NCBI GenBank assembly: GCA_973895155.1 | Contig: OZ316891.1 | Span: 25,233,899-25,297,898 of the forward strand | Length of the DNA stretch: 64,000 nt | Origin: Marsupella aquatica | Taxonomy: Eukaryota; Plantae; Marchantiophyta | Direction of reading: 5' to 3' | In this document: piece by piece, positions 14,496-61,916 of the stretch | Numbering within the stretch: position 1 is the first letter of the stretch | How the letters are laid out: every line of letters begins with the position of its first letter | Notes under the pieces: generated by a model | Databases searched by the model: none | Told to the model about the DNA's origin: nothing | Seen by the model: only the letters and a program-made list of their open reading frames with translations | Position numbers and translations under genes: made by a program

Positions 14496-14999
14496 CTCCC
14501 CCTTGGTTAGTTTATGGAGGAGCATAAAGTAACCACATCTCTTGAACCTAGGGTATAATCCGGTTTAGGGGTCCACCTGTGTGATGTAGCCTCATTAAAA
14601 CCTCGCCGCTTTCTTCTCGAGGAAAGAGTGCTACCATCACTTATATAGGTGGTTTCCCATATCTAATGTCCTGGTTAAGCCTTTTTGCCATGTCTTAGTT
14701 AGTGTTGATCGTATGTGCTAAGTGGGGTTATGTGAATGTTCCTAATGGGTGTCTAGTCTCCCCCTCAGCTCGTTGCCTGGTGTGCGTCTCGTGTTGTTCT
14801 TCATGTCGTTTTGCGTATTGCGCTTCGCTTCGTGTTGTGCTTTGGGTTAGTGAGGCCAAGTCGGGCGTTTTTGCGTTGGTTTGCGTTGTTTCACGTCGGG
14901 GATGTGGTGTGGCGCTCGCCGAGTGTGGTGGTCGGGCATCTGGAGGCGGCTTCATCGGGCGACAGTTTCATCGTTGGGTAATCCTTTCGAGCTTCAGTG

Positions 15000-19727: not shown

Positions 19728-19961
19728 TCATGCCAATAAAGTATTAGTCCTTTGGACTCTCGATATGCTGGTCCCGAATTGATGCTCTATGTGAAAAATT
19801 TCGTGTTTTGTAAAAAAAATTCAACTCTGAGGCAAAAGAATGGAGACCAAGAAAAAAAAACGGTTATGGCAGTTTCTAAAAAAAATGCCACTTTACGAGC
19901 ATTCTCCTCGTGTAAAACTCGATTGCATCTGCTTGAAAAAAAATGATTTTAGAGACTGGCT

Positions 19962-19974
19962 CGTGCTGATAACG
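19962..19974 (-). other. Copia primer-binding site, half-tRNA type (probably tRNA-Ile anticodon arm)
   Basis: CGTTATCAGCACG immediately after the 5' LTR, with no TGG start. Confidence 0.65.
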
Positions 19975-20172
19975 TGTTGTAATAGACAACTAAAGGAAAC
20001 ACTCAAAGATACTCCAACAAGATAGATCCATTACTATTGATGAGGGGATATATATATCCCTTTGGTTACATGGTAGGCAAATGCCCTTATACTGGTCCTA
20101 TGGTTAGGAGTTCTCATACTATGGTTAAGGGTTCTCGCCCTATGGTTAAGGGGTAAACTAGGGTTTACAACA
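19975..20172 (-). repeat. Copia 5' LTR (198 bp)
   Basis: Direct repeat of 14298-14495; TATA-like core inside a GGGATATATATATCCC palindrome. Confidence 0.95.
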
Positions 20173-22018: not shown

Positions 22019-22051
22019 TAAACCCTAAACCCTAAACCCTAAACCCTAAAC
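22019..22051 (-). repeat. Interstitial plant-type telomeric repeat (TTTAGGG) x ~4.6 at an LTR-LTR junction
   Basis: TAAACCC x4 plus TAAAC on the + strand; absent from all other LTR copies. Confidence 0.92.
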
Positions 22052-23907: not shown

Positions 23908-24286
23908 ACCCTCCTTAGGTCGATCGTCGGTATCTACTCTCTCCCCGAGTGCTTGCCTAAGCAGCTGACAGTAGTTGGCCTCCCGTAGTCGTCTGCCTAG
24001 TTCGTGCTCGCAAATGAGCCACCATCTCCTGCAAGCGCTCCTTACCCCTCTCCTCTGCCGGTCCTTCTTCCCATTGATCCTTCCTAGCCGCCGACGCTTA
24101 ACGCGCCCTAACCCTAACCCTAATCAGGTTTTCACCCTCAGCCTTACCTCCGGCCTCTGCCCGGGTTCCATGGTTGCCCCTAATTGTTTATATTTTCCTT
24201 GTTTTGTCACTATACTAAGGTGTTCCTAGGGTGCCTTCCTGCTTTACCCACTTAACCGGCCGAGTGATTCCTGTCTAGGCATCACA
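22051..24286 (-). repeat. Truncated 3' LTR of copy C
   Basis: Starts after the PPT at 24286; matches about 32956-35179; ends at the telomeric tract. Confidence 0.92.
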
Positions 24287-30485: not shown

Positions 30486-30506
30486 TGCCCTCTCCATCTA
30501 GCGCCA
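30486..30506 (-). other. Primer-binding site of copy C
   Basis: TGGCGCTAGATGGAGAGGGCA after the LTR end and a TTTT spacer. Confidence 0.85.
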
Positions 30507-37460: not shown

Positions 37461-40400
37461 GAACCAATATCGTTGTGACACATTCTGGGCTGCCGAAGGC
37501 CGCAATGCACCTGGTGCCTACGGGGCTGGTGGAACCGGTGGAGTTCCTCCCGCCGCTTGTTTGAGAGGGTCCAAACCATAAACGGTAATATTTTCCCAAA
37601 AAATGAGAAAAAAATATTCCTTGGCTAACAAAGCATGGGGTTCATATTGGAATTGGGATCCAAAAGAAACTTGCTTGGGTTCCCATCACAATAAGCGATC
37701 CTGCTTGGGAAGCCAAGCTCCTCGCTCCACCGGATGCGGTATTTCCTTCCAAACTTGATGCTCCATCTGGTTGTTGTAAATACACAGAACGTGAGCGGGT
37801 AAGGGGCATGCCCCTTCCTACACGTCAAGGACAAAATCAAAGGTTAATAGCTCACTACACGGCTCCACTCGTAAGGCAAAATGAGTGCCCCCTCCATCTA
37901 GCGCCAAAAAACCGGTCGCCGTATGTTGCGCCCCTAACCCGGGCCTTAAATCCAGTTTAGTTCCATGGGGCGACCTTGACCGCCAGTAGGGGTGAGGGTT
38001 CGAGCAAGGAGGTGTGTAGTGACCTTGATTAGCCCTAAGTTGGGCTAAGGCAATATACTTACTGGTATAAGACTCACGCAACTCGTACTAGTCATAGGTA
38101 TATTTGTTTTCCACTGCTGGAATATTCCCATAGTTAGTGACTCGGACTAACTCCCGGCTTGGGGCTTTCAAGCCATCGACGCGACAGAACCTTGTGACAT
38201 GCAATGGGTGGCAATCCCTACCATTAGTCCGCACCCGGTACGTCCCTTGAAATGACGCCTTTGCCCAGACAAAGCATACACACAACATCAGTTACTCGCG
38301 GAAACATTAGAGGAAAAAGACTATATTTACTCCACGAAGAATCGGTTTACATAGTTGACTCAACTTCTAAGGGGGTCAGCAGGCCCAACGGCAGTCGATG
38401 CCCAGTCCCTACGAGGCCCCGCCCCGCACTCGCCCAGCAAGCTCGACTTTGGCTCTCACTCCTTAGTGCACTCTGACCCTGCTCAGGCCGGGACTCCCTG
38501 TGCCTTGCCTTTTCTTATGCTGAAATAAGTAAACCTTCTCCCCTCCCACAGCGGAAGGGGAAGCCTAAATACTATGGTTGCGGAAAGGAACCGAAAGATA
38601 CTACCTTCCAGGGTAATGCCTACTGACTAACTACCCTCTGACTAGCCAGCCGCACTCCTTTGACCGGTTGACCATCGGCGGCAAGGGTGCTGACCGGGGT
38701 GGTAGCAACTAAGTCCACTAACCAAAATCTAGTCCGTTGATGGACTCTATCCTATGTTGACTGATCCTAACTGATCCCGTCCTAATTCTTCCTGTTGTGC
38801 CACTAATCGGCGCCTAATGACAGCTATTTTGTCGTTAAGCCTAATAAAAAAGATGCTACTGACTCAACTGTCCCGTGCAGCGCCTGCTCACACCCCCGGT
38901 AACCACCCCTTACGTGCGTGTTGTGGTTGGGCCAGGGTTTGTCCCCCTGTCGGGGCGAGACCTCGAGCCGCCTTGATCAGGGGTGGGCCCTGGTCTTCCC
39001 CGCTGGAGGACGAGCAGGGTAATGCGGTCCTGCAAGGCCTTGTTGTCCCGCACCGCCTCCTCCGCCTCGTTTGCAGCTTCATCGACCTCTGTCTAGAGCC
39101 GTGCTACCTCCAGGTTGAGCTGGTCGATGGAGTCACGATGGGTTTGGTCCTGCGCCAGAAATTTATCCCGTTCGGCGGAGAGACTAGCCACCTACTGAGC
39201 TGCTTGTAGGAATTGGTTGTTGAGGTCGGTCAGGCTGGTAACCCGAGCCGAGGATTCCGAGCGCAACTGAAGCACGATGTCGTCCAGCTTCTTGAGATCC
39301 GCTTGCGCCCTGCTCAACTCCTAGGTTAGTCCGTCCCTTTGTTCGACGATGCGGACTAACTCCTCACGGCGGGTAGTGGCCTCCTCCTCGAGGTGTTCTA
39401 CCAGCATTTGGAGGCGCCCAATCTCATTCCCCTTCGCCATGAGTTCTTCTTCCAAGCGGCTTACGATCTGTGGTTGGTGCTCTAATATGAAGAAGGTTGG
39501 TTGAAAGTATGTCAAGACTTGTTGTCCGATGTACGGCGCCAGCTCCCTTGACAGAGTCTGACTAAACTTCTGGACCAGGTCGTAGGCCATGGTCCTCGGG
39601 GCTACTTGGTAGTCCTCCATCCTCTCGGGTACCGGCGGTTCCTCGGGTGGGGTGGTGAGCTCCTCCATAGTTTGCACTAGGGAAGGAAAGGTTTCTTCAG
39701 GTGGTGGAGGGATTGGGGGTGGTTGTACTACGGGTAGCGGAAGCTTGATGGAAGGGGGCGGCGGAATTTCAACAGGAGGGGGTGACGGAGTATTAGTCGA
39801 GGCCTCCGGCTTGGGGTTTGCCTGAGGCATGGTAGTCCGCTCGCTCGGGGATGCCTCCTCTAGAGCGGGGATGACATTAGTCGGGGCTGAGGTGGCCATA
39901 TTCTTTCCTCTGGCCTCCCGCCGCGCCTTGTACCAGGTGAGGATGATGGCGATATGACTTCCCAAGTAAGTCTTTCCCCCAATAGCCATACCTCCCTGAG
40001 CCCGCTTAAGCTCCCCAGAGAACCTTTGGTAAAAGAATTGGGCCCAGTTCTGCCGTTTGTACTGTTCCACTTGTACGATTGTGCAAAGGGAGATCTTGGA
40101 TCGTGGCTCAATCATGTGTAGGGTAGTCCGTATGAAGTTAAGCCGCTCCAGGCAGATTAAGTTGGTGCACAACCCCTACTTGTATCCGTTGTCCATCTTA
40201 CCTTTGGGTTTGAAGTGCCGAGGTGTATACTCCTTATCCTGAATTTGGAGTTCAACCGGCACCGGCCCGGTTGGCAGGCAAAAGATCTGTGCTAACCAAT
40301 GCTTTGTGAGTGATAAGGTCTATCCTAAAACCTTGGTGGTCGATGCGTCATTGTCAAAATTGGAGATGAACTCACAAATCTCCTTTGGCCCGGCTGCGCA

Positions 40401-40504
40401 CGGTCTCCATAGCAAGTGAGCAAACTACTCCAACTGATGCTCCTTGAGGTAGTCCGCATGGTCGAGTTTCTTGATTGCGATCCAAACTACCTCGGGGACG
40501 CGGA

Positions 40505-43500
40505 TGTGGTGCATCCCATGCTCCCCAAACCCAAGAAACCCCCCCGCACAAGCCGATTCCCGCAGGTTTCATGCTCGGCGAGGCCGTTTCCGTAGCTTAG
40601 TGGCATGGGATGCTGCTAACCTCCTACTATTACTATTAATATTTTACACACATATACTGGACAGATCATTCATCGGGTCATGAGATACGCAGTTGGCCTA
40701 ATCTAGACCTTCTCTTGTCTTTCCCTCCTGTTGGTTAGGTATATTTGGATTCCGCCGCCAGAATGATCCCCAATTGGTTTGGTTAAGCCGCTAAGACCTC
40801 TCTCAGCTTGACACATCCAACTCTCACTCCCTTGCTTACTTCCCTTCTACTTGTTGATGTGGGCACTCTTCACACAAGTTAATGCGACACACAAATAGCA
40901 AAATGACTCCTTTTGACTGAGTTATAGCATGCACTTGCAATACAAACAGTACATCTCATAGACAAGCTCTGCAAACTAAGCCGTGAGACCAACTCTATTC
41001 AGTTCTTAGGTATGAGGAAACATGAATATACACAAGGGTCATTGTATAACTAACCGAGAGCTTCTCTTACTACTTGATCCCAGCCTTGCTGGTGCAACTA
41101 AAAACTTGCTAAAGAAGAGGCCCTGAACTCCCCGCCGCCCAAGTACTTATCCTGGTCGCGGATCCGCCTGATTCCTTGCAGCATAAGCCTAATCTACCTA
41201 CTGTAATCTACTTGACTGTAATCTACCTATGTACAGCAAGGCAGGAGCACAAGTGTCGCCCTCACCCATGGATCCAAAATCCCACTAATCTAAGTGTCAG
41301 GGCTGTCTCCTGGTCCTGATCCTAAGTCTAGACTTGGAGATCAGCGCCCGCCCTGCCCACTCACGCCTCCTACCTCCACGTCCGCCTTCCCTAAAAGGGA
41401 CGGCGCCCTTACACCGTCACGACACCGGTGGCTGGTCCTCACTGGACGCCCCCAACGCATCCTCCGCAGCCACTGCCGTTGGTCCGTCCTATGACAGATT
41501 ACCTGCCCTTGACCGAGTCAACTCTTCATCGGCCTGATTGGGTCCACCGTCGGCTTTGGCCTCAGCCTCGATCACGGCCTCCGATACGGCTATGGCCTCC
41601 CCGACATGTTCTAGTGGAGGATCCGGTACCTCGGCATCATTACTGGTTCTCCCGGCCTCGGCCTTGCCATCTCCACTTCCTAGGACTGATGGATCCACCG
41701 CCGTGCCGATGCTGGAGATTGTTACGGCTTTATCTTCTCGGTCACAACAGCTTGAGAAGCCGTATAACTCCCAGACCTAGAAGGTTTCCGCTTCTTCTTC
41801 TTCCCTATTTTGACAGCCGGTTCCTTCCCCTTGCCACTTACCTTCGGCACCTGGGTGAGTGTTTCGGCTTGTCCTGCGGCCAATACTACCCCTGGTAACT
41901 GGGTTCCCCCAATTGGAGTTGGACCTGATGAAGCCAAGCATTTAAATACTGTGGCTTGTGTCTTCAGCCGCTCTGTTTGGTTGTTGGCCCTCCGCTGTAG
42001 GTTCTCCATCTTCCTTGTGATTTCCTCCAACTCCTCCTGGGTCTCGTCCAGGTCCTTGCATGCCTCCTCCAACTCCTTATTGGCTTCCTCCAATTCTTTC
42101 TTTAAGGTAGCCCTCTCCTCCTGGGTTGCTCTTAGCTCCTTGTCGAGCTCTGCTACAACCACAGACTCCATTTTATTCATCTTGGCATAAGTCTGGTTGA
42201 ACTGGTCGTCCTTTTCGCGTAGGTCAGCCTTGAAGCTGGCCGTTAGGGACGCAAGCTCCTGTTGCAGCGCAAAATCCCTTGATAGGATTTCCCTAACTCT
42301 GCTTCCTTCTGCTCAAGGGCTCCGCGGATATCTTTGAGCTCTCCTTTCAACGCCCTCTCCCTTCTTTGGTTCTCCGCCATTGCCCGATTGTTGGTTGCTA
42401 AGTGGGCCTCCTCTGCATCCCTTAGCTCCCGCTTCCATTTCTCTCTTTCTTTGACTGCGCCGGCCAACTCTCCTTGGGTCCAAATCAGTTTATCCTTGAT
42501 AATCTGATTGTCAGACTGAGCGGTATCCAACTGCCCCTGCATGATGTTTAGCTCATGCCGCTTAATCCGTAGCTCATCTTGGGCTTTCTTGGCCACCTGC
42601 AGGATTTCCACCTTGGCTTCCTTCTCCCTAAGCCGTCGGATGACCTTGTCCTTCTTGCTTCTCTCCAAAACCACCGCTTCTTCTAATTCGTGCTTTTCCA
42701 ACATCTCCCTCTGGAAAAAGGGTCCCTGCTCCAACTCCTCCCCAAAGATACTAAGCGCCAGGTCCTCACACATCTCCCCGTACTCCATGGCTCTATCCTT
42801 AGCATAGGTGGAGTAACTAGAAGTCATCGGCATCAACCACCGCGGCCTCTGCTCCCAAGCCGCCTTGCGGATTTCTTCTATGGTGGCAAGAGGGTTGCTT
42901 CTTTTTTCGGCAAGCCGCCTGATGTCCTCCAGCCAATCTCCTCCTGGTAAATCCTTTTCCCTAGCCAGGGCTGCTTTCTCTTCCTCCCTAAGTCGCTCCT
43001 GAAATTCTTGTGCCGTCTGCTTTATGCCGTCAAAGCTCGGGGGAGCAATCTTTGGTGGGGGAGACTCGGGGCTATTTTTTTGGGTGGGGTCCCCTCGAAC
43101 TACTCTTGGAAGCGTGGGGATAAATTGGCCACAGGTCCTTACTCCTAGAACATGATGATCCGACCCATAGCCGGAGTTATCATTGTTGTAGTCCTCCACC
43201 GCCTCCTCCACTACTTGGACTCCCGGCTTCTCCCTTTGGTCCCCTGGTCCAATCGTAAAAATGGCCTCTGGTTCCTCTGGTTTCCAGGCTGTCGTCTCCC
43301 TCTGCTCTCCGCGGGAAGGAGCCTTAGGTTGCTCTGCCTCTGATTCGGGGCTTGAGGCTCCCACATACATTCGCACTCCCGGCTTGTGTTCTGGCCTCCT
43401 GGTCTCCTTGGTTCCGGTAAAGGGGTCTTCCCTTCTGAGTCGGCTTAGGCCGACCTCTGGGGCAACGTCCTGTATTGGTGCCGTTGCCGGAACCATTGCC

Positions 43501-45228
43501 GTTGCCGGAACCATTCTCTTTTCCTTCTCCAGCAATTTGAGCAGATTTTGCATGCCTGGTTGCTGCATCGGCAAGTCTTCTTTCTTTGTCCGAAACACGT
43601 GCTCGATCGTTGGACTGTCGGGTTGGTTGGGCTTCTCTAGTGCCGGCCCCTGCTCTTCCTCTTCCTCCGGTGCCCTTGCCGATAGGGGAAGTACTGGGGC
43701 AAAGATTTGACTTCTGGCATACCGGCACAACAGCAGCATGTGATAGCCAAGCAGGGACACGCTTCCCACGCCGATCACCTGCTGTTCCTCCTTCAAGATC
43801 TTCTTTAGTTGGTTGAGGAGGTACCTGTTGTAATCCCGGCTTGGGTCTGGCCTTTTTGCCAGGTAGACCTGAGCCTTGCCGATTTCTGCCCTCGGCAAGT
43901 TACAGTGCATGGTCACCCGCAAGAAATCGATCATTGCTCCAATGTGCGGGTTGGTGCAGGTGTTCCAAAAGAAGCCATTCTTTGTTGATGGTCCTGGGAA
44001 CGACCAAAACTCCTTGTCAGGTAAGGTCTTCTTGGTATCAACCTTGGTCTTATTACCCATCGGCAATCCAAACACCTCAGCAATCACCCGGGGAGTGAGA
44101 TAGAAATCCTTCCCATACACCCTCGTGGAATTGGTCTCGGGTTCCCATGATCCCACGAATTCTAATAAGTCTGAGTCTGGCACCTCCGGCTTCAGCCATG
44201 GTAATCTTACGAAGGCTTCCAAGCCGGACCCGGCCATGAAGCCTTGGTACTTCTTGGTCTGCATGGCCGTAAAGCATGCATCCTCCTCCCGTGCAAAGTG
44301 TAATTGCACCTCCTCCGGTAGGGTCGCCGTCCAGCCTTTCCAGGTGTCATCGTTTGTTGGAATGGCTTTGATGGGATCAACCTCTTCCTCTTCGGCGTCT
44401 TCCCTTGTCCTGCTCTGCTGCTCTACTGGCTTCCTAGGTACCGCCGACCTCGTTCTTTTTGCCAGGGTGGCCTCTTCGTTGTTGTTTCCTTTCCTCTTCA
44501 TCTCGGCTGCCGTGGATGTTTCTCCTAGCAAGGTTGCCTTTGTCCACCCCTCCGTGTTACCCTTCAACTCCCAGTGTAGGTCATTGCAGCGATTGATGGC
44601 TTCCCGGATGCCGACGATTCTGTTTTCGCAAAACAGAAGGTTGTCGAGCTGATTGGCAGTAGGAGTCCACAAGAACTCGGCCTTGATAAGTTCTCCTCCT
44701 AAGAAAGCCGTCTTCTGCAATTCCCAGAGCCGAGCGAGCTCCTGCCGTTCTCAAGTTGCTCTCTTTGATTCTTCGTCCTTGTAAGTCCTGACGTACTCAC
44801 CTGCCCGTTCGAACAGGCATCCCCAAAAATGTGCCGCTTGATTGACGTTGCTCATACCCTCCTTGAGTTGATCGCTGGTATCTGTTCCCACCCCGAGTGC
44901 TTGCCTAAGCAGCTGACAGCATTTGTCCTCCCGTAGTCATCTGCCCAGTTTGTTCTTGCAAATGAGCCACTATTCCTTGTGAGCGGTCCTTACCCCTCTC
45001 CTCCTCTGGTCTTCCCCTGTTGGTCACCCCTAGCCGCCGACGCTTAGCGCGCCCTAACCCTAATCGTGTTCTCTCCCCGACGTCCTTACTTCCGGCCTCG
45101 GCCCGGGTTCCATAGTCACCCTTAATTGTTTATATTTTCCTTATTTTGTTCCTATACTAAGGTGTTTCCAGGGTACACTCCTGCTTTACCATGTAAACCG
45201 GGCTAGTGATTCCTGGCTGGGCATCACA
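40505..45228 (-). mobile_element. Solo LTR, family 1 (older subfamily), 4724 bp
   Basis: TGTGGTGC...GCATCACA with 5-bp TSD GCGGA (40500-40504 and 45229-45233); no PBS or PPT. Confidence 0.95.
41417..45113 (-). pseudogene. LTR-encoded accessory ORF in the solo LTR, with several stops and frameshifts
   Basis: ORF pieces 42243-44720, 41722-42180 and 41489-41698 are collinear with 31423-34806. Confidence 0.88.
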
Positions 45229-46464
45229 GCGGATTACCTGTAATAAGTTAGACTTGGGATTATCCAAGGGCCGTCGGGTCTGGTTGGCCGGGGGGTTTGC
45301 CGGGGCAGGTGCAGGAGCGACGTTGGTTCGCGTTGTCAATTTGGGGGCCGACGTCGTCCTTGCCCGCTTACAAGAACGCTATTGGAGTTGCAGACTAACT
45401 TGCTCGGAACCCAAAGAACACTTGGTGTTTGTTCACGGAACGGACTTGGGACCGGTTTGGGGGTACACCGGTGGTCATCGGCTGAGGAGCTGGTGGTGTC
45501 AGGGTAGCCATATCCTAGTTGAAGGTGTTGGAGCTTTCCCCGAGAAACATAAGATTACGCGCTGCTTCCCGTTGTCTACTGATGTCTTCTTGGCACTTTT
45601 TGGCTACGATATGTTGGTCTAGGTACCCCGGGATCTTGTTGAACTTTGCGGGGACTTCAAGAATCGCCTCTGCTACCGATCTAAGCCCTTCCTCGCTGAG
45701 ATATAGCTCGATGATGTAGTCCCGCAGCTCGTTGTAGCTGGAATCCCTGGTGATGGCTATATTCTCGCAGTTAATCTGCGCTACCTTGGCCACCAACTTT
45801 GCGTATCTTCTTTTGTAAGCGGCTTTCTTGGTACAAGAGTACTAGTAAGTCTCGGAGAACTTAGCACCTACCTCGCCAAATAAGGTCCAAAATCCCAAGG
45901 CTGTAAGGGTCATACTAACCTTTGTAGTCTGGTTTGTCGAGTCCGTGTTCCCGCCTATTTGGTCTGCTTACTGGTGGAGGCCTTACTCGCCCTGACTAAA
46001 TCTTGCCACAACCCGCTCTTATCCCTCGATGATCTCCTTGTAAAGGTCAGCTTGATTCGAGCAAAAAGGCGAGAGAATGGCAGCATTCGCAAATTTTGAA
46101 AGGTAGAAATGAGCAAATGGCCCGTAGCTCCATCAACTTCGCTCTTATGGAGGTGCCAGGGTGAGCTCGAGCGTGAGAGGGAAAGGCCGTTTTGGTCGTT
46201 GATAATGAGCTGAAGTCGGTATCTCGGTCCAAGTGTGATTCTCCTAACGGATTTTTACTCCGCCGCCGCCACCGTACCGCGGTCAAGCGTAATAATCCTC
46301 TGCCTTAATTTGGAATCATCCGATCAACTAACCTACTCCTAATCTATTCATAATGGCAAAGACAGCTATTCATGCTATTCTATGCTACGGCTACGGTCCT
46401 AATGATCGTATAAGTCCTAATCTAGGACTTGCATTCGATTAAGTGACACGTTACCCGTGTCACA

Positions 46465-50150: not shown

Positions 50151-53100
50151 TGTGGTGCGTCCCATGGCTCCCTAAACCCAAGAAACCCCCCAGCTCAAGC
50201 CGATTCCCGCAGGTTTCGTGCTTGGCGAGGCTGTTTCCGCGGCTTAGCGGCATGGGACGCTGCTAACCTTCTACTACTACTATTAACATTTTACACACAT
50301 ATACTGGACAGATCCTTCATCGGGTCATGAGATACGTAGCCGGCCTAATATAGGCCTTCCCCTGTCTTCCCCTCCGTCTTGTTAGGTATGTTTGGATTCC
50401 GCCGCCAGAATGATCCCCAATAGGCTTGGTTAAGCCGCTAAGACCTCTCTCAGCTCGACACATCCAACTCTCACTCCCCTGCTTACTTTCCTTCCTTCTG
50501 TTGATGTGGGCACTCTTCACACAAGTTAATGCGACACACAAATAGCAAAATGACTCATTCTGACTGAGTCATACCATGCACTTGCCATACAAACAGTACA
50601 TCTCATACACAAGTTCTGCGAACTAAGCCGTGAGGCCAACTCTATTCAGCTCTTAGGCATGAGGAAACATGAATATACACAAGGGTCACTGTATGACTAA
50701 CCGAGAGCTTCTCGTACTACTTGATCCCAGCCCGGCTGGTGCAACTAAAAACTTGCTAAAGAAGAGGCCCTGAGCTCCCCGCAGCCCAGGTATTTATCCC
50801 GGTAGTGGATCCGTCATTCTTTGCAGCATAAGCCTAATCTACTTAACAGTAATCTACTTGCCCGAATCTACCTATGTACAGCAAGGCAGGAGCACAAGTG
50901 TTGCTCCTACCAGTGGGACCGCAATCCCACTAAGCTAAGTGTCAGGGCCGCTCCTGGTTCTGATCCTAATCCTAAACGTGGAGATCCGCGCCCGCCCTGC
51001 CCACTCACGCCTCCTCCCTCCACGTCCGCCCTCCCTAAAAGGAACGGCGCCCTTGCACCGTCACGACACCGGTGGTGGATCCTCAATGGACGCCCCCAAC
51101 ACTTCCTCCTCAGCCACTGCCGTTGGCCCGCCTACTGACAGATTACCTGCCCTTGACCGAGTCAACTCTCCATCGGCCTGACTGGGTCCACCTTCGGCTT
51201 CAGCCTCGACACCGGCCTCGGCAATACCCACGGCTTCGGCCTCAGCCACTCCCACGGCTTCGGCCTCCCCTTCCCCTAGGGTAGTTGGATCCTTAGCCGT
51301 GACCCTGTCTGGGGTCGGTGCTGGGTCTACCTCCTTGATCACCACGGCCTGTGAAGTCGTATTACTCCTTGACCCTGAAGGTTTCCGCTTCTTCTTCGTT
51401 GGTGGCTCGGCAGCTGGTCCCTTCCCCTTCCCACTTACTTCCGGCACTGGTGCAGTTGACGCGGCTTGTCCTTCGGCAATTACCACCCCTGGTAACTGGT
51501 TTGTCCCAACGGGAGATGGACCTGCTGCAGCTAAGCATTTAAATACTGCGGCTTGTTTCTTTAGCCGCTCTGTTTGGTTGTCGGCCCGCCGCTGTAGGTT
51601 CTCCATCTTCCTCGTGATTTCCTCCAACTCCTCTTGGGTTTCATCCAGGTCCTTACGTGCCCCCTCCAGCTCGTTTTTGGCCTCCTCCTGCTCCCTGTGG
51701 GCTTCCTCCAATTCCTTCTTCAAGGTAGCCCTCTCCTCCTGGGTTGCTCTTAGCTCCTTGTCGAGCTCTGCAATGATGACAGACTCCATCTGGTTCATCT
51801 TGGCGTAAGTCTGTTCGAGCATCTCGTCCTTCTCCCTTAGGTCGGCCTTGAAGCTGGCCGTCAGGGACGCAAGCTCCTGCTGCAGCGCCATAATCCCTTG
51901 ATAGGATTTCCCTAACTCGACCTCCTTCTGCTCAAGGGCTCCGCGGATTTTCTCGAGCTCCCCTTTCAACGCCCATTCCTTTCTTTGGGTCTCCGCCATG
52001 GCCCGGCTGTTGGCTGTTATGTGGGCCTCCTCTGTATTCTTCAGCTCTTGCTTCCACTTCTCCCTCTCTTTGATCGTGTCGGCCAATTCTTCCTGCGTCT
52101 GAGTTAGTTTATCCTTGATATTCTGATTATCAGCCTGCGCGGTGTCCAACTGCCCCTGCATGATGTTCAGCTCATGTCGTTTAATCCGCAGTTCATCTTG
52201 GGCTTTCTTGGCCGCCCTTAGATCTTCAATCTCGGCTTCCATCCTCCTAAGCCGCAGAATGACCTCGTCCTTCTTGCTTCTCTCTAAAGCCACCGCTTCT
52301 TCTAATTGGTGCTTCTCCAACTGCTCCCTATGGAAAAAGGGTCCTACCTCCAACTCCTCTCCAAAGATGCCGAGCGGGCAAGTTCCCCACACATCTCACC
52401 ATACTCCATGGCTCTATTCTTAGCGTAGGTGGAGTAAGTAGAAGTGATCGGCATCGCCCATCGTGGCCTCTGCTCCCAAGCCGTCCTGCGGATCTCTTCA
52501 ATCGTGGCTAGAGGTTTGCTTCCTTTTTCGGCTAGCCGCCTGATGTCCTCCGGCCAATCTCCTCCTGGTAAATCCTTTTCCTTAGCCAGGGCGGCCTCTT
52601 CCTCCTGCTTGATTCGCTCCTGAAATTCCTGCACCGTCTGTTTTATGCCGTCGAAGCTCGGGGGAGCAACATCTGGTGGGGGAGACTCAGGGCTACTCTG
52701 CTGGTTGGGATCCCCTCGCACTACCCTTGGAAGTGTGGGGACAAACCGGCCACAGGTCCTTACTCCTGGAACGTGATGGTCCGACCCATAGCCGGAATTA
52801 TCATGGCTGCAGTCCTCCACTGCCTCCTCTACCTCTTGGACGTCCGGCTTCTCCCTCTCCTCTTCGTCGGTAGGAGCTTCAGGCAATTCTGCCTCAGATT
52901 CGGAGCTTGAGGTTCCCACATACATTCGAACACCTGGCTTGGATTCCGGCCTGATTCTCTCCTTGTTTCCAGCAAAGGGGTTTTCTCTTGTGAGCCGGTG
53001 TAGGCCTACCTCTGTAGTAGTGTCCTGCATTGTTGCCGTTGCCGTTGTTGTTGCCGATGCCGATTTCTTTTCTTTCTCCAGTAGTTTCAGCAGACTCTGC

Positions 53101-54777
53101 ATGCCTGGTTGCTGCATCGGCAAGTCCTCCTTCCTGGGCCTAAACACCTGCTCGATCGTAGGACTAACAGGTGGTTGAGGCTTCTCAGCCAACGGCCTCG
53201 GCGTTGGAGCTTCCTCGGGTGCCCTTACCTGCAGGGGAAGTACCGGGGCAAAAGTCTGACCTCTGGCATACCGGCACAACAGCGGCATGTGATAGCCAAG
53301 CCGCGACACGCTCCCCATGCCGATTACCTGCTGCTCCTCCTTTAAGATCTTCTTCAATTGGTTGAGGAGGTACCCGTTGTAGTCCCGGCTTGGGTCTGGC
53401 CTTTCTGCTAGATAGACCTGTGCCTTGCCGATCTCTGCCCTCGGCAAGTTACAATGCATGGTCACCCGCAAGAAGTCGATCATCTCTCCTATGTGCGGGT
53501 TGGTGCAGGTGTTCCGGAAGAAGCCATTCTTCGTTGATGGCCCGGGGAACGACCGGAACTCCTTGTCAGGCAAGGTCTTCCTGGTATCAACTTTGGTCTT
53601 ATTGCCTATCGGCAGGCCAAACACTTCGGCAATTACCTTGGGAGTAAGATAGAAATCCTTCCCATATATCCTCGTGCAATTGGTCTCGGGTTCCCATGAC
53701 CCCACGAATTCTAATAGGTCTGGCTCCGGTACCTCCGGCTTCAGCCATGGTAATCTTACAAAGGCCTCCAAGCCGGATCCGGCCATGAAGCCTTGGTACT
53801 TCTTGGTCTGCATGGCCGTAAAGCATGCATCCTCCTCCCGTGCAAAATGTAGTTGCACCTCCACCGGTAGGGTTGCCGCCCAGCCCTTCCAGGTGTCATC
53901 CTTGGTTGGAATGGCCTTGATGGGATCGACCTCCTCCTCTTTGGCTTCTCCCTGCCTCCTGCTCTGCTGCTCGGCTGGCTTCTTTGGTGCCGCCGACCTT
54001 GTTCTTTTTGCCGGGGTGGCTTCATCGTTGACGGCTCCCTTCCTCTTCATCTCTGCTGCCGTGGAGGTTTCTCCTAGCACCGTTGCCTGGGTCCACCTTT
54101 CCGTGCTACCCTTTAATTCCCAGTGTATGTCGTTGCAGTTCTTGATGGCCTCTCGGATGCCGACGACGCTGTCTTTGCAAAACAGAAGATCGTCGAGTTG
54201 ATTGGAAGTAGGCGTCCACAGGAACTCGTCCTTGATGAGTTCGCCTCCTAAGAAAGCCGTCTTCTGCAGCTCCCACAATCGAGCGAGCTCCTGCCGTTCT
54301 CGAGCTGCCCTTTCTGACTCCTCGTCCTCGTAAGTCTTGATGTACTCAGTTGCCCGTTCGAACAGGCATCCCCAGAAATGTGCCACTTGATTGACGTTGC
54401 TCATACCCTCCTTAGATTGATCGTCGGTATCTACTCTCTCCCCGAGTGCTTGCCTAAGCAGCTGACAGTAGTTGGCCTCCCGTAGTCGTCTGCCTAGTTC
54501 GTGCTCGCAAATGAGCCACCATCTCCTGCAAGCGCTCCTTACCCCTCTCCTCTGCCGGTCCTTCTTCCCGTTGATCCTTCCTAGCCGCCGACGCTTAACG
54601 CGCCCTAACCCTAATTGGGTTTTCACCCTCAGCCTTACCTCCGGCCTCTGCCCGGGTTCCATGGTTGCCCCTAATTGTTTATATTTTCCTTGTTTTGTCA
54701 CTATACTAAGGTGTTCCTAGGGTGCCTTCCTGCTTTACCCACTTAACCGGCCGAGTGATTCCTGTCTAGGCATCACA
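50151..54777 (-). mobile_element. Solo LTR, family 1 (young), 4627 bp
   Basis: TGTGGTGC...GCATCACA with 5-bp TSD TTCCT (50146-50150 and 54778-54782). Confidence 0.96.
51061..54662 (-). pseudogene. LTR-encoded accessory ORF (~1200 aa from MEPGQR) with a single frameshift
   Basis: ORFs 52344-54701 and 51061-52392 joined by a 2-bp insertion near 52377; the N-terminal extension is open in this copy. Confidence 0.9.
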
Positions 54778-57564
54778 TTCCTGTTACCAGAATCTGTTTG
54801 CTGTTACTGTTTGCTATTTGCTGTCATTTGTAAATACCTTGATAGTAGTAGGGGAGATGCCGCGGGAACTTCTGATGGTGGGAAGAGGAGCCAGGAAACT
54901 AGTAGTAGTGGAGGGCCAGGGCAATCGTCGTGGACGTGCATCAGAAGCACCGTCCGTTAATCCAAGCGAAAGTACAAGATCAAAGGGATCTAGGCCATCT
55001 GGTTCTGGACTTAGCACAAAGAGGAAGAGAACTGGCTAGGGTGAAACGGTGGCTCCATAAGTAATTAAATCTTCGACTAATACATCAATTCCTTCAGTTC
55101 CCATCACGGTTCCTGCGATGCCATTGGTAAGTATTACGTCATTTAGTTTTGTTGAACAAATCCGGATTCCGAGAAAAATCTCGCTGTTTCTTTCCTTAAT
55201 TGAATTTGCAACATTTTTTGTAGACAAATGCGGATTCTGATAAAAATCTCGTTCTTTCACTCCTTAATTGAATTTGCAACGCTCTTGTAGGCTGATCAGG
55301 AGGAGACGGCTCTTTTGATGTATGAGACTAACGCCATCAAAGCAGAGCTCAGTCTGTTGATGCAACAAAGGGTGCAAAGGACAACTGTCCTTCTGCATGT
55401 CAACAATCTGATTTTGATGAGGAGGGGGATTTTTCAACTTTGATTAGCATGTGGAGAATATCAAGATAATTCTCATGAAAAACCCCACGAACTTCAGTGC
55501 CCCGTTCGTGCTGTGTGTGGATCCGAAGGATTGTCCCACACCCGAAGATTGGGACATCCTGAAGTCAAGGGTATGGAAGTATAGAATTATTGGAGGGAAT
55601 CATGGTGCTCGGGCAAAGTCCGAGTTGTATAAAATGTACGGCAAGCAAATTTATGGTGAGCTGGAAGCTTGGATTTATGTTGGGCTTGCAAGATCCGAGA
55701 TCCAAAATTTGGGCTTCCAGCATAATTATGACCAGGAGTATTGGAAGAACGTGACTCACATTGACCAAGTTCGTGCTTGTCACAATATTTATCTTGAAAT
55801 GGGTGTGGGCTCAAATAAAGATGTTTGCCAAGCATGTTGTCAGGAATGCATGATGGATTACACGCTAGGCGTTCATGACTCCATGGCCAAACATGACCCA
55901 GCTTTCCAAATTGCTTTCCAAACAGGTGAAATTTGGGATCTTAAGGAGAAAATTTTCTAGATGTGGGAGAAGGGTATTGTCTTAAGTAGGACAACCCAAA
56001 AACATTGTGGCAACAACAAACGCAAAGGGAAAGGTAAAACCTTTGACGGTAAGGGAGATTAAAATGAATAAACTTGTTGGGGACCTCAACTTAAATTCAT
56101 TTCAAGGTCTACAAGGACTGTCAAATAAGGAGCATGTCAAGCGTCTCTTGAGTAGGGTTATCGGGAAGGTGATCACTTTGGATCAAATGCACAAGGAAGG
56201 TGAGAAGCTGAAAAAGCTTGCCAAGGTGAAGAAACTATTTTTGTAGATATCTGGTCAGCCAGATTGGGCAACGTGAAGAGAAATGTTTCCCACTAAAATA
56301 GATGTTTTGGTCCTTGGCATATGGGCGGAGAAATTGAGTGACCCGGTAAGCATTCCTCTGACCGCAAGATTTTTATCGGCAAAAGTGGTTCCGGCTATCA
56401 CTTATAATTCTGCGGAGGAGGTTATTGTTCCTCTGACCGCAAGATTTTTATTGGCTTTAGCATTCCATTTGTAGGTTTCTAAGCGATTGTATTTATTGGC
56501 GATAGGATTCCATTTGTAGATATGCATGATGCTTATGGGCTATAGTGTTCCATCGCAAGATTTTTATCGGGTTTTGGATTCATCTCACGTTATTCTAACT
56601 GGAGATGTGTGTGACATTTGTACAGTTGAAGATTAGTTCAAAAAGGAAAAACAAAGTGGTTCTGGCTGTCACTTATAATTCTGCGGGGGAGGTTATTGTT
56701 CCCTTGGCTGACATCCCGTATGTGTTTAAGAATTTTGTGCTTGCTGCAATCGATAAGTACAACCGGCTCCAGTCCTTAGGCCAGGGTGCAGTAGAAGCGT
56801 TGGAACAAACATGGAAAAATGCTGACGGGGATTCTTTCCCCTACTATCTCCATGTTGGGGATGTTTGAATTTTGGATTCTTTTGTTGAGCCAAGGGCTTA
56901 CACCCTTGCGGTCGCGGATATTCCCTATGGTTTTAATGCTCTTGGTTCGGAGTTTGATGAAGTGTCCTTCACAGAAAAGGACATTTTAGATATGGTGACA
57001 AGTTTTTCAAAGATGACGACCGCTAAGCAGTGGAGGTTTGTTGCGATCCATTCACTACAACAAACTAATATGGTGATGTCTGCACTTGAGAGTGTATGCA
57101 ACTGTGGGGTCGAGGCTGGAATCTGGGAGAAGACTAACATTCATGAGCGTCCTGCTAGCGCTCGATTAGCATGGGGTTTTGAGAACTGGTCGATGGGTTT
57201 CTATAGTGTGACGTCGCCGGTATGGCGAGTAATGAGTAATTCGGTCTAAACCATGCCTAGCACGTGCGTTAGGGGTATCTTAGGCCGCTATGATTAGCAT
57301 AACGACAGTATTTAGGTAGCCATTATGAGTATGAAATCATTAGTCAATAAGGGGAATTCATGTTCGGGCTGGCGGCGCGTCGCCATTTGCACGCCCGGGT
57401 TACGAGCGTGGAGGGGCCCTCCCTCGGGTCCGTATAACAAACTTTGGGAGGCGTCCACTGACACGTGGTGACTCAGACCGGCGGAGTGGCCAGTGCACTA
57501 CAAGCGTGAACGGTTCAGCCTATAGGCAACGAGGAGATGTCGAGGGATCGACAAGCCCTCAAGG

Positions 57565-57571
57565 TATAAAA
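57565..57571 (+). promoter_or_regulatory. Candidate TATA box upstream of the family-3 LTR ORF
   Basis: TATAAAA in a GC-rich context about 105 bp before ATG 57673. Confidence 0.5.
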
Positions 57572-57672
57572 AGGGAGCCGACCCTTTGTAGTGCACTAGT
57601 CCATCAGTCCGCGCGCCAGCTTTGACCCCAACTCTCTCGGTCGCTCTTAGTTGCCACTACTATCTCCTCTGA

Positions 57673-60306
57673 ATGTCGCACACGATCCTCTCCAGTTCGG
57701 CCATTCGATTCTGGACGCAGTTTCTATCTACCGGAAGGCACTTGGCCGACTCGTTGAAACACGCCAACCCACACCGATACAAAATCAAACGCGAGTACGA
57801 GAGAGCCATCCGCCTAGCAGGATGACACCGCTACATCCTTAACTTTGACTACCCGTCTCAGAGCGAGCTTTACCGACCAGCAGAGGGATCTGGGTACTTC
57901 TTCAACGGAGACAAATATATCGGTTTCTGGGAAGCATTGCTTCGGCTTCCGGACGAGGTCTTCAATATCCCGGGTACAATCGACTTGCAATGACATCACT
58001 TTGACCACATCCCTGCTCAGGTTCGGGCTATCATTAACAACGAGTTCAACACTACCCGTTTGACAGGGTCATCTGCACTTGCTTTGGAGAACTTCTACCC
58101 GCACCTACAGAGCTTCATGGGAACTAGAACCGCAACCACCGGCGCCGACCCAGTCGACCCCACCCGTACCAACACAGGCTCAGGCTCAGCTTCAGTCTCA
58201 GTCTCAGCCTAGCCAACCCCCACCGCCGATCGCCCTGCCAGCAGTACAAGTACGCTCCGTCATCAACGTTGTGGACCTTAGCGACGACGACGAAGCTACC
58301 CCACCCTTGCTCAGGCGGCCCAGAGGAGCAAACACTCGGGGGGCCGACACTACATTATCCCCTACTCGGACCCAAGGAGCGGCTCCAGCAGACAACACGG
58401 TGACCGTGGCCGCCCCGAGCCTATTACTAACGGCGGTAGCACTACCGGTGCCCGATAGAGAGGATGGGGAGGTGTCACCCTCCCCAAGCCAGTCACGGGG
58501 GAAGAAGAGGAAGGAACCCACCACTGCATCCGGGTTACCATTGGCCACGGTAGCCGTGGCCAAGGTGACAATGCACCGCATGGGGGAAAATGTGCATAAA
58601 AACATCCTCCATCCCAAGCATGCGGTGTACCTGAAGACTCAGGGATTCGAGCACCTCGCCTCTCTCCCCTGGAACACTTGCAGGTACTACGGGGAGAACA
58701 TGACAGAATTTGTCAAGAATTATGACGACGCACATCAACAGACTCGGCTGTGGGGAAGGAATATGTCCCTCACGGAAGAACGGCTCAAGATGATCTTTGG
58801 ATTACCCGAAGGTGACCATCGAGTCGAATCACGGGCTCTCGGGGGCAAGGGAGCCAAGTACCAATTCTTGAGTTTTCTTTCGGAGGGAGCAGTGGACAAT
58901 GGGTTTGTGATAAGGACCTGCCTCATCCCCAGGATAGCTGAGCGACTGGAATTCCAAAGGTACGCCCTCCATATGATGGAACCCTGGGGGGAGATCTCCG
59001 CCGCCCAGGTTATCCAGGTCGAAAACTATCGACCTAGGAGGTGGGCGTCGTACTTTGCTAAGAAATTCCATGAAGAGATGGAGCGGCAAAGGAAGACGCT
59101 ATACATTGGCGGAAAGGCGTATTTCGCTAGCCACATCGAGATCATTCTTGAGTGGTACGCTTGGTTTGATCGACGAACCCTTTCCTGTGTCAACGTTACA
59201 AAGCTGGTCCCGGCTAGGTGGGTTTTCCCGGCCTTGGAGAGACGGCCCCAACCCAAGGCCCGAGGTCCAGTGGACACACAAGCTTCACCCACCCCACCTC
59301 CACAAGTAGCTGTAGTCGTAACCGAGGAGGTACCGGATGGGTCGGTTATCGCAACCATCGGTGCGATCCAATAGGCCGGGCTAAGTACAGAAGTCGGTAC
59401 AACGGAGGCCTTACTCGAGCCCGGGCCCCCCAATGACCCGCCGGTGGCTATTTTGGGGAACCGGACATTGCAGTAGGAGGACACTCCAGCCCCTTCCAAC
59501 ACGTCCCAAGGGCTAGATGTCATTGCCCCGGCCCCCGCGCTTGTTGACGTCTGCCCGTGCCCAACTCCGGACAGACACAACCTGGACCACCCGGAACTCT
59601 TCGTATCGGGTACATTTCTGAATGGGCTTCTGGGAGATTTTTCTCATCAAATTGCCCGGGATACTGGGGAGTTCATGGCCCGAAAGGTCGCCTGTTTCTT
59701 CAATCAGGAGTTGGTTGCCGTAGTAAAGGCAGGTCGGGCCCAATCAGAGGCCCTTCAGAGGATAGAGCGGTACCGGGAGGAGTCCGTATACTTAAAGAAC
59801 AAGGTTGCGGCTCAAGAGGCTGAGCTTCTGCAACTACGACCCAAAGTTGTAGCCGCCGACGAGTCGTTAGCAAATACGCACGCCCTTACCGCCCTAGCCG
59901 AGCAGGCCAAAGCAGGGAACGAGGCCAAGATTTCACGGCTTCGGTCCCAGATTGACAGTTTGAAGAATCAAACTGTTATCTGGCAGAAAGACTTGGAGGA
60001 GGCCGAAGAACGGGCCCAACGGGACACTACGGAGATAGCCACGCTACAAGCCAAAGTAGCGCGGCTTCAGACCGAAGCCGAGAAGCAGGACCAGTTGGTG
60101 GGCAAGCTGACGTGCGACGCCCAGCAGCTCGAGGAGGCATGCTAGGAGGCAGCGGAGGAGACGGACGCAGCAAAGCGAGAGAACAAATCTCTGCTAGACC
60201 AAGTCCAGCTCCTCAAGTCGGACAACGACAGACTTTGCAGGCAGCGGGAGGACCGCTCCCACTCGGGCGGCTCTGGCAAGCGTGCCAGATATTAGCGGTG
60301 GAGTAG
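57673..60306 (+). pseudogene. LTR-encoded accessory ORF of family 3
   Basis: GFEHLASLPW...EFVKNYD...LWGRNMSLTEERLKMIFGLPEG...GGKAYFASHIEIILEWY, then a coiled coil (59675-60306); several stops and frameshifts. Confidence 0.8.
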
Positions 60307-61916
60307 GAATGGAATAGGGTTAGGAATAGCTAAGTCAGGCTATTGGGACAGGCACCTGCCTTAGTTATAGCAGCACTGCCATGCTGTCCAGCCTGCATAG
60401 ATTAGGATCTTCTAATAAGACACAGCCGTTTTTTGGCCTGACAGTCAGCTTAGACCTTAGTCAGCAAATCTTCGGGCGAGAGGACACTCCGTTCCTCGGC
60501 CCTTAGTATTTAGTGCACCACTCGGTAGAGGCAAGGGGGGGTTTTTAGTCTCAGAGTTGGACATCGGTGGTATGTGCGGGGAGTCCCGACCTCTGGGAGT
60601 GAAAGAGTACCAAGGGGAGGGGGGGTAGGACTAAGCTCTTTGGGCAAGTGCGGAGCCGGGCTTTGTTGTAGTGTACACCCTCGGCCTTGAACCTGTTCAT
60701 TCCGAAGCTGTCGGGTCAACCAAGTGTACACTTATGTCCCCTATGTAGTAAAATCCTTTCCCATTATTTCCTTCGTGTAAATCAAGATTGTATGCTTGTG
60801 CGCGTGTATGTGTGTGTGAATCTCGTGTATAGGTGACAACGTCGGGCCGAATGCACTACCCGAATTGTGCACGGGGTGCAGCTTGCGGGTATGTGGTTGC
60901 GAGCACGGGTTGAGGACCTGTATCATTGCATCCGGATCGAAGGTGGACAACACGAAGGCTTAGAAGTCCTTAAGCCGGGGTCGATCCTGTTATCGACTAA
61001 GGTACGTTCCGGCGGCGGAACACAAACCATACCTAGGAGATGTCCGTATCTAACAGTAGGCGCACTTAGCGCTAGTTTACGTGAATTGGGTGCATTACGT
61101 TTGTCCCTCCCTGCCCGAACCCTCATATTTACGAAGGATGTGCCCGTTTAAAGTTGAAGCCCGAGTTAAGGCCAAGGCTGATGACGTGACATATAGCGAG
61201 GAAGGCATTCGGAACATGAACATGTACAATTTCCAACCAGATGAGTCTCGCGTCAATATCCTCAAGGTTCCATGTGTAACCAAGAAGTCCATTGATCCGT
61301 TGGCATGTGTTGTGAACCCGTACCAAAAGCCTGTTGGTTTGGGGGCTTGGTTTGTTTCCCATTTCTCTGAGAAAGAGGATTGGGTTATAGATCTTTGTTG
61401 TGGAACCGGATCGATGTTAGCTGCTACGCTCCTCAATTCTTGTCAGGGTTGTGCTGTTGATAAGAGTTCTGTGCAGATTGATTTGGTGAAATCTTGGATC
61501 ATGACTCTGGAGTCAAATTGGAACTTATTTGAGGAATCCCAGATTGAAGGGCACGGCGTTGAAGGTCATGAGATTTAACCACCAATTGCAGGCCAATTGG
61601 GTGTTCTCGGGACATCGGCTTACAAAATTGAAGGCATGAAGGAGACCGAAGAGGAACAAGAAGAAACTTAGGAAAAGCCTCCCAGAACACCAAATGAGGA
61701 TGATCTCAACAAGATGTTATTAGATTAGTTAGATGTGCTAGTTAGGGTTTCTTGGCATCACAGTCATGCTGTTATCAATGAGGAATGGAGTTGTCAATAA
61801 ATTTATCGGATTCTGTATTCCATCAAGAAGAACCATTGTAACTTTGTTCATGGGATAAATTTATTGGACTTTGCATTCCATCAAGAAGCACTTTGCATTC
61901 CAGTCCCTCCACTTGA

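What the first reader, a model, noticed from the sequence alone, without database searches (positions are those of the whole stretch)
57207..61191. The LTR-borne gene is conserved in three divergent families
Seen: a TSD-flanked 3985-bp solo LTR (family 3) and the ~3.8-kb LTR of element F (family 2) have no evident long-range nucleotide identity to family 1. Both still encode the same domain (LPW...EF(V/I)...T(R/K)xxG...LT...(V/I)F(G/C)LPxG...NG(F/Y)...FxRxx(L/M)H...H(I/M)xxx(L)xxY), then a Pro-rich linker and a coiled coil. Family 3 has a TATAAAA about 105 bp before the ORF. Inference: this is an old, selected, clade-wide trait rather than a one-off LTR expansion, and solo LTRs may express the protein autonomously.
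Basis: partly seen in the sequence, partly recalled or inferred. Interest (0 to 1): 0.8.

Follow-up and report, generated by a model that had tools for sequence, protein, structure and literature searches.

The report
Anti-silencing-like gene inside retrotransposon LTRs
Three distantly related retrotransposon families in what is likely a liverwort genome carry the same extra gene inside their long terminal repeats, and its core is predicted to fold like the DNA-binding anti-silencing protein VANC21, so the elements likely carry their own anti-silencing factor.

Summary
Confirmed and extended. 57207-61191 is a 3985-bp TG..CA unit with a 5-bp target duplication; the empty site exists in 4 of 4 runs laid. 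It carries a broken copy of a gene also found in the 4.65-kb LTRs of a Ty3/gypsy element (family 1, one intact 1127-aa ORF) and in a 3.8-kb LTR followed by PBS and gag (family 2). Core domains are 25-37% identical (E 1e-20 to 6e-44); a second, N-terminal domain is shared too. Between family-1 subfamilies the core is under purifying selection (dN/dS 0.10-0.12). 84 homologous clusters exist; the 11 of 30 checked that name an organism are liverworts. The AlphaFold model (pLDDT 95) has one clear structural match, VANC21 bound to DNA (Z 7.9, 191 of 207 residues, next 2.3; Foldseek probability 0.90, E 0.075). Sequence links reach Pfam Transposase_32 only below threshold. So it is likely a remote member of the VANC/PMD/Athila-ORF group, placed inside the LTR instead of the internal region. 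Anti-silencing function is inferred, not shown.

The parts
57207..61191 (+). Family-3 solo LTR, 3985 bp, TG..CA
   Evidence: (empty site in 4 of 4 runs)
57202..57206 (+). Left target-site duplication TATAG
61192..61196 (+). Right target-site duplication TATAG
57565..57571 (+). TATA-like box 108 bp before the ORF (promoter role untested)
57673..60295 (+). Family-3 accessory gene, broken copy (stops at 57823, 57991, 59372, 59474, 60143; one frame change between about 58030 and 58230)
   Evidence: an intact 906-aa relative (P0108) aligns along it, E 4e-80
57688..58002 (+). N-terminal helical domain shared by all three families and liverwort homologues; no fold match
58565..59185 (+). Core domain, predicted VANC21-like fold
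59738..60292 (+). Coiled-coil region
   Evidence: (weak coiled-coil family matches only)
61007..61035 (+). Nucleotide motif conserved near the 3' end of the LTRs of all three families
30511..35179 (-). Family-1 5' LTR (4669 bp), followed by PBS at 30497-30506
31423..34806 (-). Intact family-1 accessory ORF, 1127 aa (P0003): N domain, core, linker, coiled coil; no transmembrane segment
24275..30441 (-). gag and pol (RT, RNase H, integrase; no chromodomain or extra RNase H hit); pol stop codon lies in the first 12 bases of the 3' LTR
24287..24299 (-). Polypurine tract directly before the 3' LTR, inside the end of pol
22051..24286 (-). Family-1 3' LTR, surviving part, 99.2% identical to the 5' LTR
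40505..45228 (-). Family-1b solo LTR with 5-bp duplication, nested in the family-2 LTR gene; ORF broken
50151..54777 (-). Family-1 solo LTR with 5-bp duplication; ORF has one frame change near 52385
3297..7948 (+). Family-1 3' LTR of a second element; ORF has one stop
45229..46464 (-). Family-2 LTR, 5' part, with N domain at 45913-45623; left boundary inferred from TGTGA start
37924..40499 (-). Family-2 LTR, 3' part, with core domain (three stops) and coiled coil; PBS at 37897-37906, gag from about 37481

Best explanation
The unit is a solo LTR of a non-chromovirus Ty3/gypsy retrotransposon lineage whose LTRs contain a selected accessory gene, and the gene's core is predicted to fold like VANC21, so the protein likely binds DNA motifs in its own family's LTRs and likely protects them from host silencing. 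Shown: LTR anatomy, homology across three families, purifying selection, domain order (N domain, basic linker, core, proline-rich linker, coiled coil), no transmembrane helix. Predicted: the VANC21-like fold. Inferred: (1) the gene sits in U3, because plus-strand priming occurs right at the end of pol, so the region that is internal 3' sequence in Athila-type elements is copied into both LTRs; (2) it has its own promoter at the LTR's 5' end while genomic RNA starts near the conserved 3' tail; (3) the protein is nuclear, oligomerises by its coiled coil, binds short motifs in non-coding LTR segments (candidate: sense-strand TTAG-containing words) and opposes DNA methylation or H3K27me3; (4) young solo LTRs would supply it in trans until they decay.
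For: Fold: pLDDT 95, pTM 0.90 from 89 sequences; Foldseek top PDB hit 9lnj_A VANC21-DNA, probability 0.90, TM 0.50, next 0.04; VIA-align over 48,161 chains: 9lnk_A Z 7.9, rmsd 4.1, 191 of 207 residues, next Z 2.3. VANC and the plant mobile domain share a fold and both act through DNA motifs against silencing (PMC13547354 section 10; bioRxiv 2024.09.27.615353 Discussion; PMC5735166 passages). 8 of 89 aligned members match Transposase_32 weakly, best E 1.6e-7; atlas leads point to Transposase_32 and ATHILA. Selection: dN/dS 0.10 (0.05-0.19), 0.11, 0.12 in three family-1 pairs. Basic NLS-like runs in 7 of 8 proteins scored and no hydrophobic window above 1.6. PPT abuts pol, stop codon inside the LTR. 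TTAG is enriched on the sense strand of non-coding LTR parts in all three families (16, 21, 19 vs 7.2, 9.9, 7.4 expected; lowest z 3.4; best of all 256 words in 300 simulations 2.31).
Against: Foldseek E is only 0.075 and Z 7.9 is at the level the tool calls middling; identity to VANC21 is 10-12% and rmsd 4-5 A; a shared fold shows no function. No sequence match to PMD or DUF1985 among the 25 of 77 families shown, none to any PDB chain; profile comparison with angiosperm Transposase_32 is not significant (probability 1%; 0.1%). VANC targets are family-specific tandem arrays; here no 5-7-mer exceeds the null maximum in any family and the enriched 4-mer is shared, not family-specific. MAIN/MAIL1 were first described as silencing factors (PMC5418596). 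No expression, binding or methylation data. 0 of 3 solo LTRs intact.
Confidence: 0.55

Rival explanations
1. Same fold, different job: the protein is a chromatin-binding tether that steers integration into repeat-rich chromatin or carries the pre-integration complex into the nucleus.
For: These elements lack a chromodomain; the window is a dense nest of insertions, including a family-1b LTR inside the family-2 gene; related lineages are centromere-enriched in Apopellia (PMC12885004 passages); a nuclear-import role has been suggested for accessory ORFs (PMC7264820).
Against: No link to integrase was tested; the two characterised relatives of the fold act on transcription; one window cannot show targeting.
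Confidence: 0.17
2. The protein is a self-limiting factor: it binds the LTR and dampens its own family, like the silencing side of MAIN/MAIL1.
For: MAIN/MAIL1 loss releases TE silencing (PMC5418596 passages); dosage rising with every LTR copy would suit negative feedback (inference).
Against: The TE release in mail1 is attributed to lost MORC1 expression, with MAIL1 itself opposing Polycomb (bioRxiv 2024.09.27.615353 Discussion); the families reach high abundance.
Confidence: 0.1
3. The protein is an env-like or structural, RNA-binding particle component and the VANC resemblance is a helical coincidence.
For: Position after pol and sense orientation match env-like ORFs (PMC7264820); long coiled coil; sense-strand bias of TTAG would also fit an RNA signal or splice acceptors.
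Against: No transmembrane segment; no viral fold match at E 0.001; two aligners pick the same single PDB entry over nearly the full domain.
Confidence: 0.12
4. Family 3 is not an LTR but a free-standing non-autonomous mobile unit with no gag-pol parent.
For: No parent element is in the window and none was fetched; most contigs leaving 61191 go to unrelated sequence (agreement about 0.5).
Against: TG..CA ends, 5-bp duplication, colinear tail motifs with true LTRs (0 and 1 of 300 shuffles reach the scores), same gene layout, and a shared T-run spacer like that before the PBS of families 1 and 2 beyond the end in 3 of 4 runs.
Confidence: 0.05

Closest known systems
VANC21 anti-silencing protein of VANDAL21 (Mutator-like DNA transposon, Arabidopsis; PDB 9lnj, 9lnk)
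   Same: Predicted fold of the core over 191 of 207 residues; transposon-encoded accessory protein; coiled coil also predicted for VANC (PMC13547354 passages).
   Different: Retrotransposon, not DNA transposon; likely liverwort, whereas VANC is described as dicot-specific (PMC13547354); 10-12% identity; extra N domain; no family-specific tandem motif arrays found.
Extra ORFs of OTA retrotransposons: Athila ORF-1 (PF03078) / Transposase_32 (PF20167), PMD-A of Ogre (PF10536), Transposase_28 of Retand
   Same: Sense ORF after pol in a non-chromovirus gypsy element; weak Transposase_32 matches in homologues; 3 of 120 RT relatives from angiosperms carry Transposase_32 in the same gene model, after the integrase in 2 and before a coiled coil in 1.
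   Different: Those ORFs are described in the internal region (PMC7264820, PMC6317226 passages); here the whole ORF is inside the LTR, is present twice per element and stays in solo LTRs; window proteins have no Pfam match.
MAIN / MAIL1 / MAIL2 plant mobile domain proteins
   Same: Reported to share the VANC fold, to sit on DNA motifs and to oppose Polycomb silencing.
   Different: Host genes; no direct structural or sequence comparison could be run here (no solved structure or AlphaFold library on hand).
Retroviral U3-encoded genes such as MMTV sag and HIV nef (recalled, from no call)
   Same: A protein gene lying in the LTR and so duplicated at each round of reverse transcription.
   Different: Unrelated proteins; here 2.6-3.4 kb of coding sequence fill most of a 3.8-4.7-kb plant LTR.

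Membership tests
Solo LTR of an LTR retrotransposon (family 3) | TG..CA ends with 4-6-bp target duplication | tested here: met
   empty site in 4 of 4 runs
Solo LTR of an LTR retrotransposon (family 3) | Same sequence flanks a gag-pol region with PBS and PPT elsewhere | tested here: inconclusive
   only a 13-15-base shared, PBS-spacer-like continuation in 3 of 4 runs; no assembly held
Ty3/gypsy non-chromovirus (family 1) | Two LTRs, PBS, PPT, gag then RT-RH-INT, no chromodomain | tested here: met
Tat clade | Additional archaeal-type RNase H domain | tested here: not met
   no such Pfam match in gag or pol ORFs; feature from PMC6317226 passages
Athila vs Phygy/Selgy | Placement on a reference RT-RH-INT tree | tested here: inconclusive
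   RT groups with Calypogeia RTs (100/99), apart from the angiosperm group (32 rows, no named reference elements, midpoint root)
Transposase_32 (PF20167) | Score above gathering threshold 45 bits | tested here: not met
   window proteins no match; best homologue 31.8 bits
PMD (PF10536) / DUF1985 / ATHILA (PF03078) | Pfam profile match | tested here: not met
   none for window proteins at E 0.1 and none among the 25 of 77 families shown for 89 members
VANC-like anti-silencing factor | VANC core fold | tested here: met
   predicted model only; Z 7.9 is moderate but stands alone
VANC-like anti-silencing factor | [quoted passage not shown] | tested here: inconclusive
   no 5-7-mer above null maximum; a 15-bp array of about 3 copies in family 1; shared TTAG excess
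VANC-like anti-silencing factor | Sequence-specific DNA binding and loss of silencing marks in trans | not testable with these tools
   needs experiment
env-like ORF | Transmembrane segment | tested here: not met
   highest 19-residue hydropathy 0.68-1.54 in 8 of 8 proteins scored

The most novel reading that the evidence does not exclude
A liverwort retrotransposon lineage turned its LTR into a self-contained anti-silencing cassette (promoter, VANC-fold gene and binding sites in one repeat), so that every insertion and every young solo LTR adds anti-silencing protein; the VANC/PMD fold was then already a retrotransposon weapon in bryophytes, older than the dicot VANCs, which supports a retrotransposon origin for VANC and the host MAIN/MAIL genes and implies that Athila/Transposase_32 'env-like' ORFs are anti-silencing factors too.
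Probability: 0.35. Interest if true: 0.9.

Novelty: new variant of a known kind. Interest (0 to 1): 0.74.

Why it matters
The function of extra ORFs in plant gypsy retrotransposons is an open question (PMC7264820), and the origin of the plant mobile domain, host or retrotransposon, was left fully open (PMC5418596). A selected VANC-fold gene in a bryophyte retrotransposon gives a concrete, testable function and an early-diverging data point. Its place inside the LTR changes the logic of solo LTRs, normally seen as dead ends: here recombination removes gag-pol but keeps the regulator. One copy in the window is intact, and liverworts are tractable, so the test is direct.

Tried and rejected
No assembly is held, so no genome-wide count or parent search. 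Word-indexed protein searches found 0 and 1 homologues; only the profile search was informative. DNA context for outside homologues: two metagenome scans and one viral scan gave no locus; a third alignment was too divergent to scan with. No RNA holder was listed among 6 runs. Sequence searches of the PDB gave nothing. Viral fold library: no match at E 0.001. N domain: model pLDDT 72 from 12 sequences, only generic helical-bundle rows in Foldseek, atlas rows under 0.9; the second aligner could not be run on it. Pairwise N-domain alignment of family 1 to families 2 and 3 was not significant (221 and 38 of 1000 shuffles reach it); only the profile built from outside homologues linked them. Profile comparison with three angiosperm Transposase_32 gene models was not significant. 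The 8-mer TAGATTAG occurs 14 times vs 1.85 expected, but most are copies of one family and it was picked after looking, so it is not counted as evidence. LTR 5' heads show no clear shared motif (286, 4 and 155 of 300 shuffles). An upstream ATG next to the family-1 TATA box was rejected as the start: its frame is open in 1 copy and not in subfamily 1b, while homologues begin at the later ATG. Earlier scan notes: nothing in 3 look-ups. The VANC21 structure paper and Sasaki 2022 were not held.
Full report
Observation. The unit runs 57207-61191 (3985 bp), begins TGTGAC, ends GTGACA and has TATAG on both sides. It splits a methyltransferase-like reading frame whose two halves are in frame across the site, and contigs from 4 of 4 public runs laid (3 studies, 3 coded organisms) join 57201 to 61192, the empty site. 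Summed contig depth over the unit is about ten- to fifty-fold that of the flanks (not a copy number), and contigs leaving 61191 continue into different sequences (agreement about 0.5), so this is an abundant mobile family with an exact end. Nucleotide similarity to the rest of the window is limited to 29 bp, while protein similarity is strong: 27% to family 1 (E 1e-21), 37% to family 2 (E 6e-44), 25% between families 1 and 2 (E 2e-20).

That the gene is inside an LTR is firm for family 1. The element at 35179-22051 (minus strand) has a 4669-bp 5' LTR, a PBS, gag, pol (RT, RNase H, integrase), a polypurine tract and a 3' LTR whose surviving 2.2 kb are 99.2% identical to the 5' LTR. Two further copies are solo LTRs with their own 5-bp duplications. 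The 5' LTR holds an unbroken 1127-aa ORF. The polypurine tract lies in the last codons of pol and the pol stop codon falls inside the LTR, so nothing separates pol from the LTR. Family 2 has one 3812-bp LTR, interrupted by a family-1b solo LTR and followed by the same PBS and a gag 34% identical to family-1 gag; its left boundary is inferred. Family 3 shares tail motifs with both (0 of 300 and 1 of 300 shuffles reach the scores; family 2 vs 1, 0 of 300), and in 3 of 4 runs some contigs continue past its end into one shared T-run sequence resembling the spacer before the PBS of families 1 and 2. Its gag-pol parent was not recovered.

Gene structure and selection. All three families have an N-terminal domain of about 105 aa: a profile built from 6 outside proteins and no window row finds it in family 3 (E 7e-10), family 2 (1e-8) and family 1 (1e-6). 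Then come a basic low-complexity linker, the 200-aa core, a proline-rich linker and a coiled coil. An intact 906-aa relative from an unnamed source has the same layout and aligns along the family-3 copy. Between family-1 subfamilies dN/dS is 0.10 (95% 0.05-0.19), 0.11 and 0.12 for the core, 0.19 for the N domain, 0.24 for the coil and 0.39 for the linker, against 0.03-0.06 for pol. The family-3 and family-2 copies are pseudogenes, and 0 of 3 solo LTRs in the window are intact; of the family-1 LTR copies only the 5' LTR at 30511-35179 is.

Range and host. A profile of 5 window rows found 84 clusters at E 0.001 or better among 1.84 billion representatives. I looked up 30 of the 84: 10 are Calypogeia fissa, 1 is Riccia sorocarpa, 19 name no organism. 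The RT's closest named relatives are Calypogeia (69-70%), then Riccia (54-59%), then angiosperms; on a tree of 32 RT rows chosen from 120 hits (3 further chosen rows dropped for short alignment) it groups with Calypogeia at 100/99. The host is therefore likely a leafy liverwort (inference). Whether outside homologues are also LTR-borne is untested (searches gave no locus).

What the core is. Window proteins match no Pfam family. Of 89 aligned members, 8 match Transposase_32 at E 1 or better, best 1.6e-7, all under the curated cut-off; the atlas gave Transposase_32 and ATHILA as leads at 0.89 and 0.87. The AlphaFold2 model is confident (pLDDT 95, pTM 0.90). Foldseek ranks VANC21 bound to its target DNA first (probability 0.90, TM 0.50, E 0.075; next probability 0.04), and an independent aligner over 48,161 chains finds it as the only chain with Z 5 or more (Z 7.9, rmsd 4.1, 191 aligned; next 2.3). 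The tool warns that Z under 8 can reflect a common arrangement; the gap to rank 2, the coverage and the agreement of two methods on a plant transposon protein make chance unlikely, but the match is remote (10-12% identity) and rests on a model. I put the fold assignment at about 0.8.

Mechanism. VANC21 binds a 9-base motif in non-coding transposon DNA and removes methylation over whole elements (PMC5735166, passages). VANC is structurally homologous to MAIN (PMC13547354, passages and section 10), and MAIN/MAIL1/MAIL2 sit on DNA motifs and oppose H3K27me3; the authors raise an anti-silencing role for transposon-encoded PMDs as a hypothesis (bioRxiv 10.1101/2024.09.27.615353, passages and Discussion). 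PRC2 represses transposons in bryophytes (bioRxiv 10.1101/2022.10.24.513474, abstract). The proteins here have NLS-like basic runs (7 of 8 scored) and no transmembrane segment (8 of 8). I infer a nuclear, oligomeric, motif-binding factor that keeps cognate LTRs active (0.55). A candidate cis signal exists: TTAG is over-represented on the sense strand of the non-coding LTR parts in all three families beyond the best word in 300 simulations; but longer family-specific arrays, the VANC hallmark, were not found, and the strand bias would also fit an RNA signal. The likely origin of the arrangement is a 3' sense accessory ORF of the Athila type taken into U3 because plus-strand priming occurs directly behind pol; in 2 angiosperm gene models Transposase_32 follows the integrase. 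U3/R/U5 borders were not measured.

Comparison and novelty. Extra ORFs with PMD, Transposase_28 or Athila ORF-1 domains are well known in non-chromovirus elements, as are LTRs up to about 5 kb (PMC6317226, passages); reviews place these ORFs in the internal region and call their function unknown (PMC7264820, parts 1-2 of 3; PMC3485330, passages; PMC11728184, passages and section 2.5; PMC13317346, passages). PMD-A on gypsy elements is described for angiosperms, with ancestry left open (PMC5418596, passages). A liverwort genome paper lists Tat, Phygy, Selgy and Athila lineages without this feature in the passages seen (PMC12885004). Searches aimed at an LTR-internal ORF or a retrotransposon VANC showed no such report in titles, abstracts or the passages read; the library lacks most subscription journals, I read no supplements, and the element tables of PMC6317226 may hold such elements unflagged. 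MMTV sag and HIV nef as LTR-borne genes are recalled, from no call. Verdict: a real, selected feature; a new variant of a known kind (accessory ORF of the VANC/PMD/Athila-ORF group, relocated into the LTR), with a testable function. It works like VANC by inference; it is not filed as a VANC, PMD or Transposase_32 member.

Noticed in passing
window 22023-22050: Four perfect plant telomere repeats (TTTAGGG) sit exactly where the 3' LTR of the family-1 element breaks off, next to a short inverted LTR piece; looks like telomerase-type filler at a repaired break.
   Followed up: partly
window 56869-57206 and 61197-61578: The insertion target is an N6/N4 DNA-methyltransferase-like ORF (weak Pfam match, E 0.005), itself apparently multicopy; probably part of a DNA transposon.
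   Followed up: partly
window 55448-55960 and 62615-63514: An ORF with a ParB-like motif by eye (recalled motif, no Pfam match) upstream of the methyltransferase-like ORF, and a DUF7869 ORF (E 6e-28) downstream on the other strand.
   Followed up: no
window 14297-20172: An intact Copia element (1575-aa ORF, 199-bp LTRs 99.5% identical) is nested in the gag of a family-1 element.
   Followed up: no
window 7951-35179: Family-1 elements lie in tandem sharing an LTR (PBS and gag follow the LTR ending at 20693), and that middle LTR is a patchwork of two subfamilies.
   Followed up: partly
window 36870: Family-2 gag runs directly into a family-1 LTR gene fragment of a third subfamily, a deletion or template-switch junction between families.
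   Followed up: no
window 31197-31235 and 41190-41233: A short 15-bp tandem array just after the family-1 ORF is kept in subfamilies 1a and 1b; candidate binding site.
   Followed up: partly
proteins P0077, P0078: Riccia-type homologues form a distinct subfamily; one gene model is fused to a DDE_Tnp_4 fragment, possibly an annotation join.
   Followed up: no
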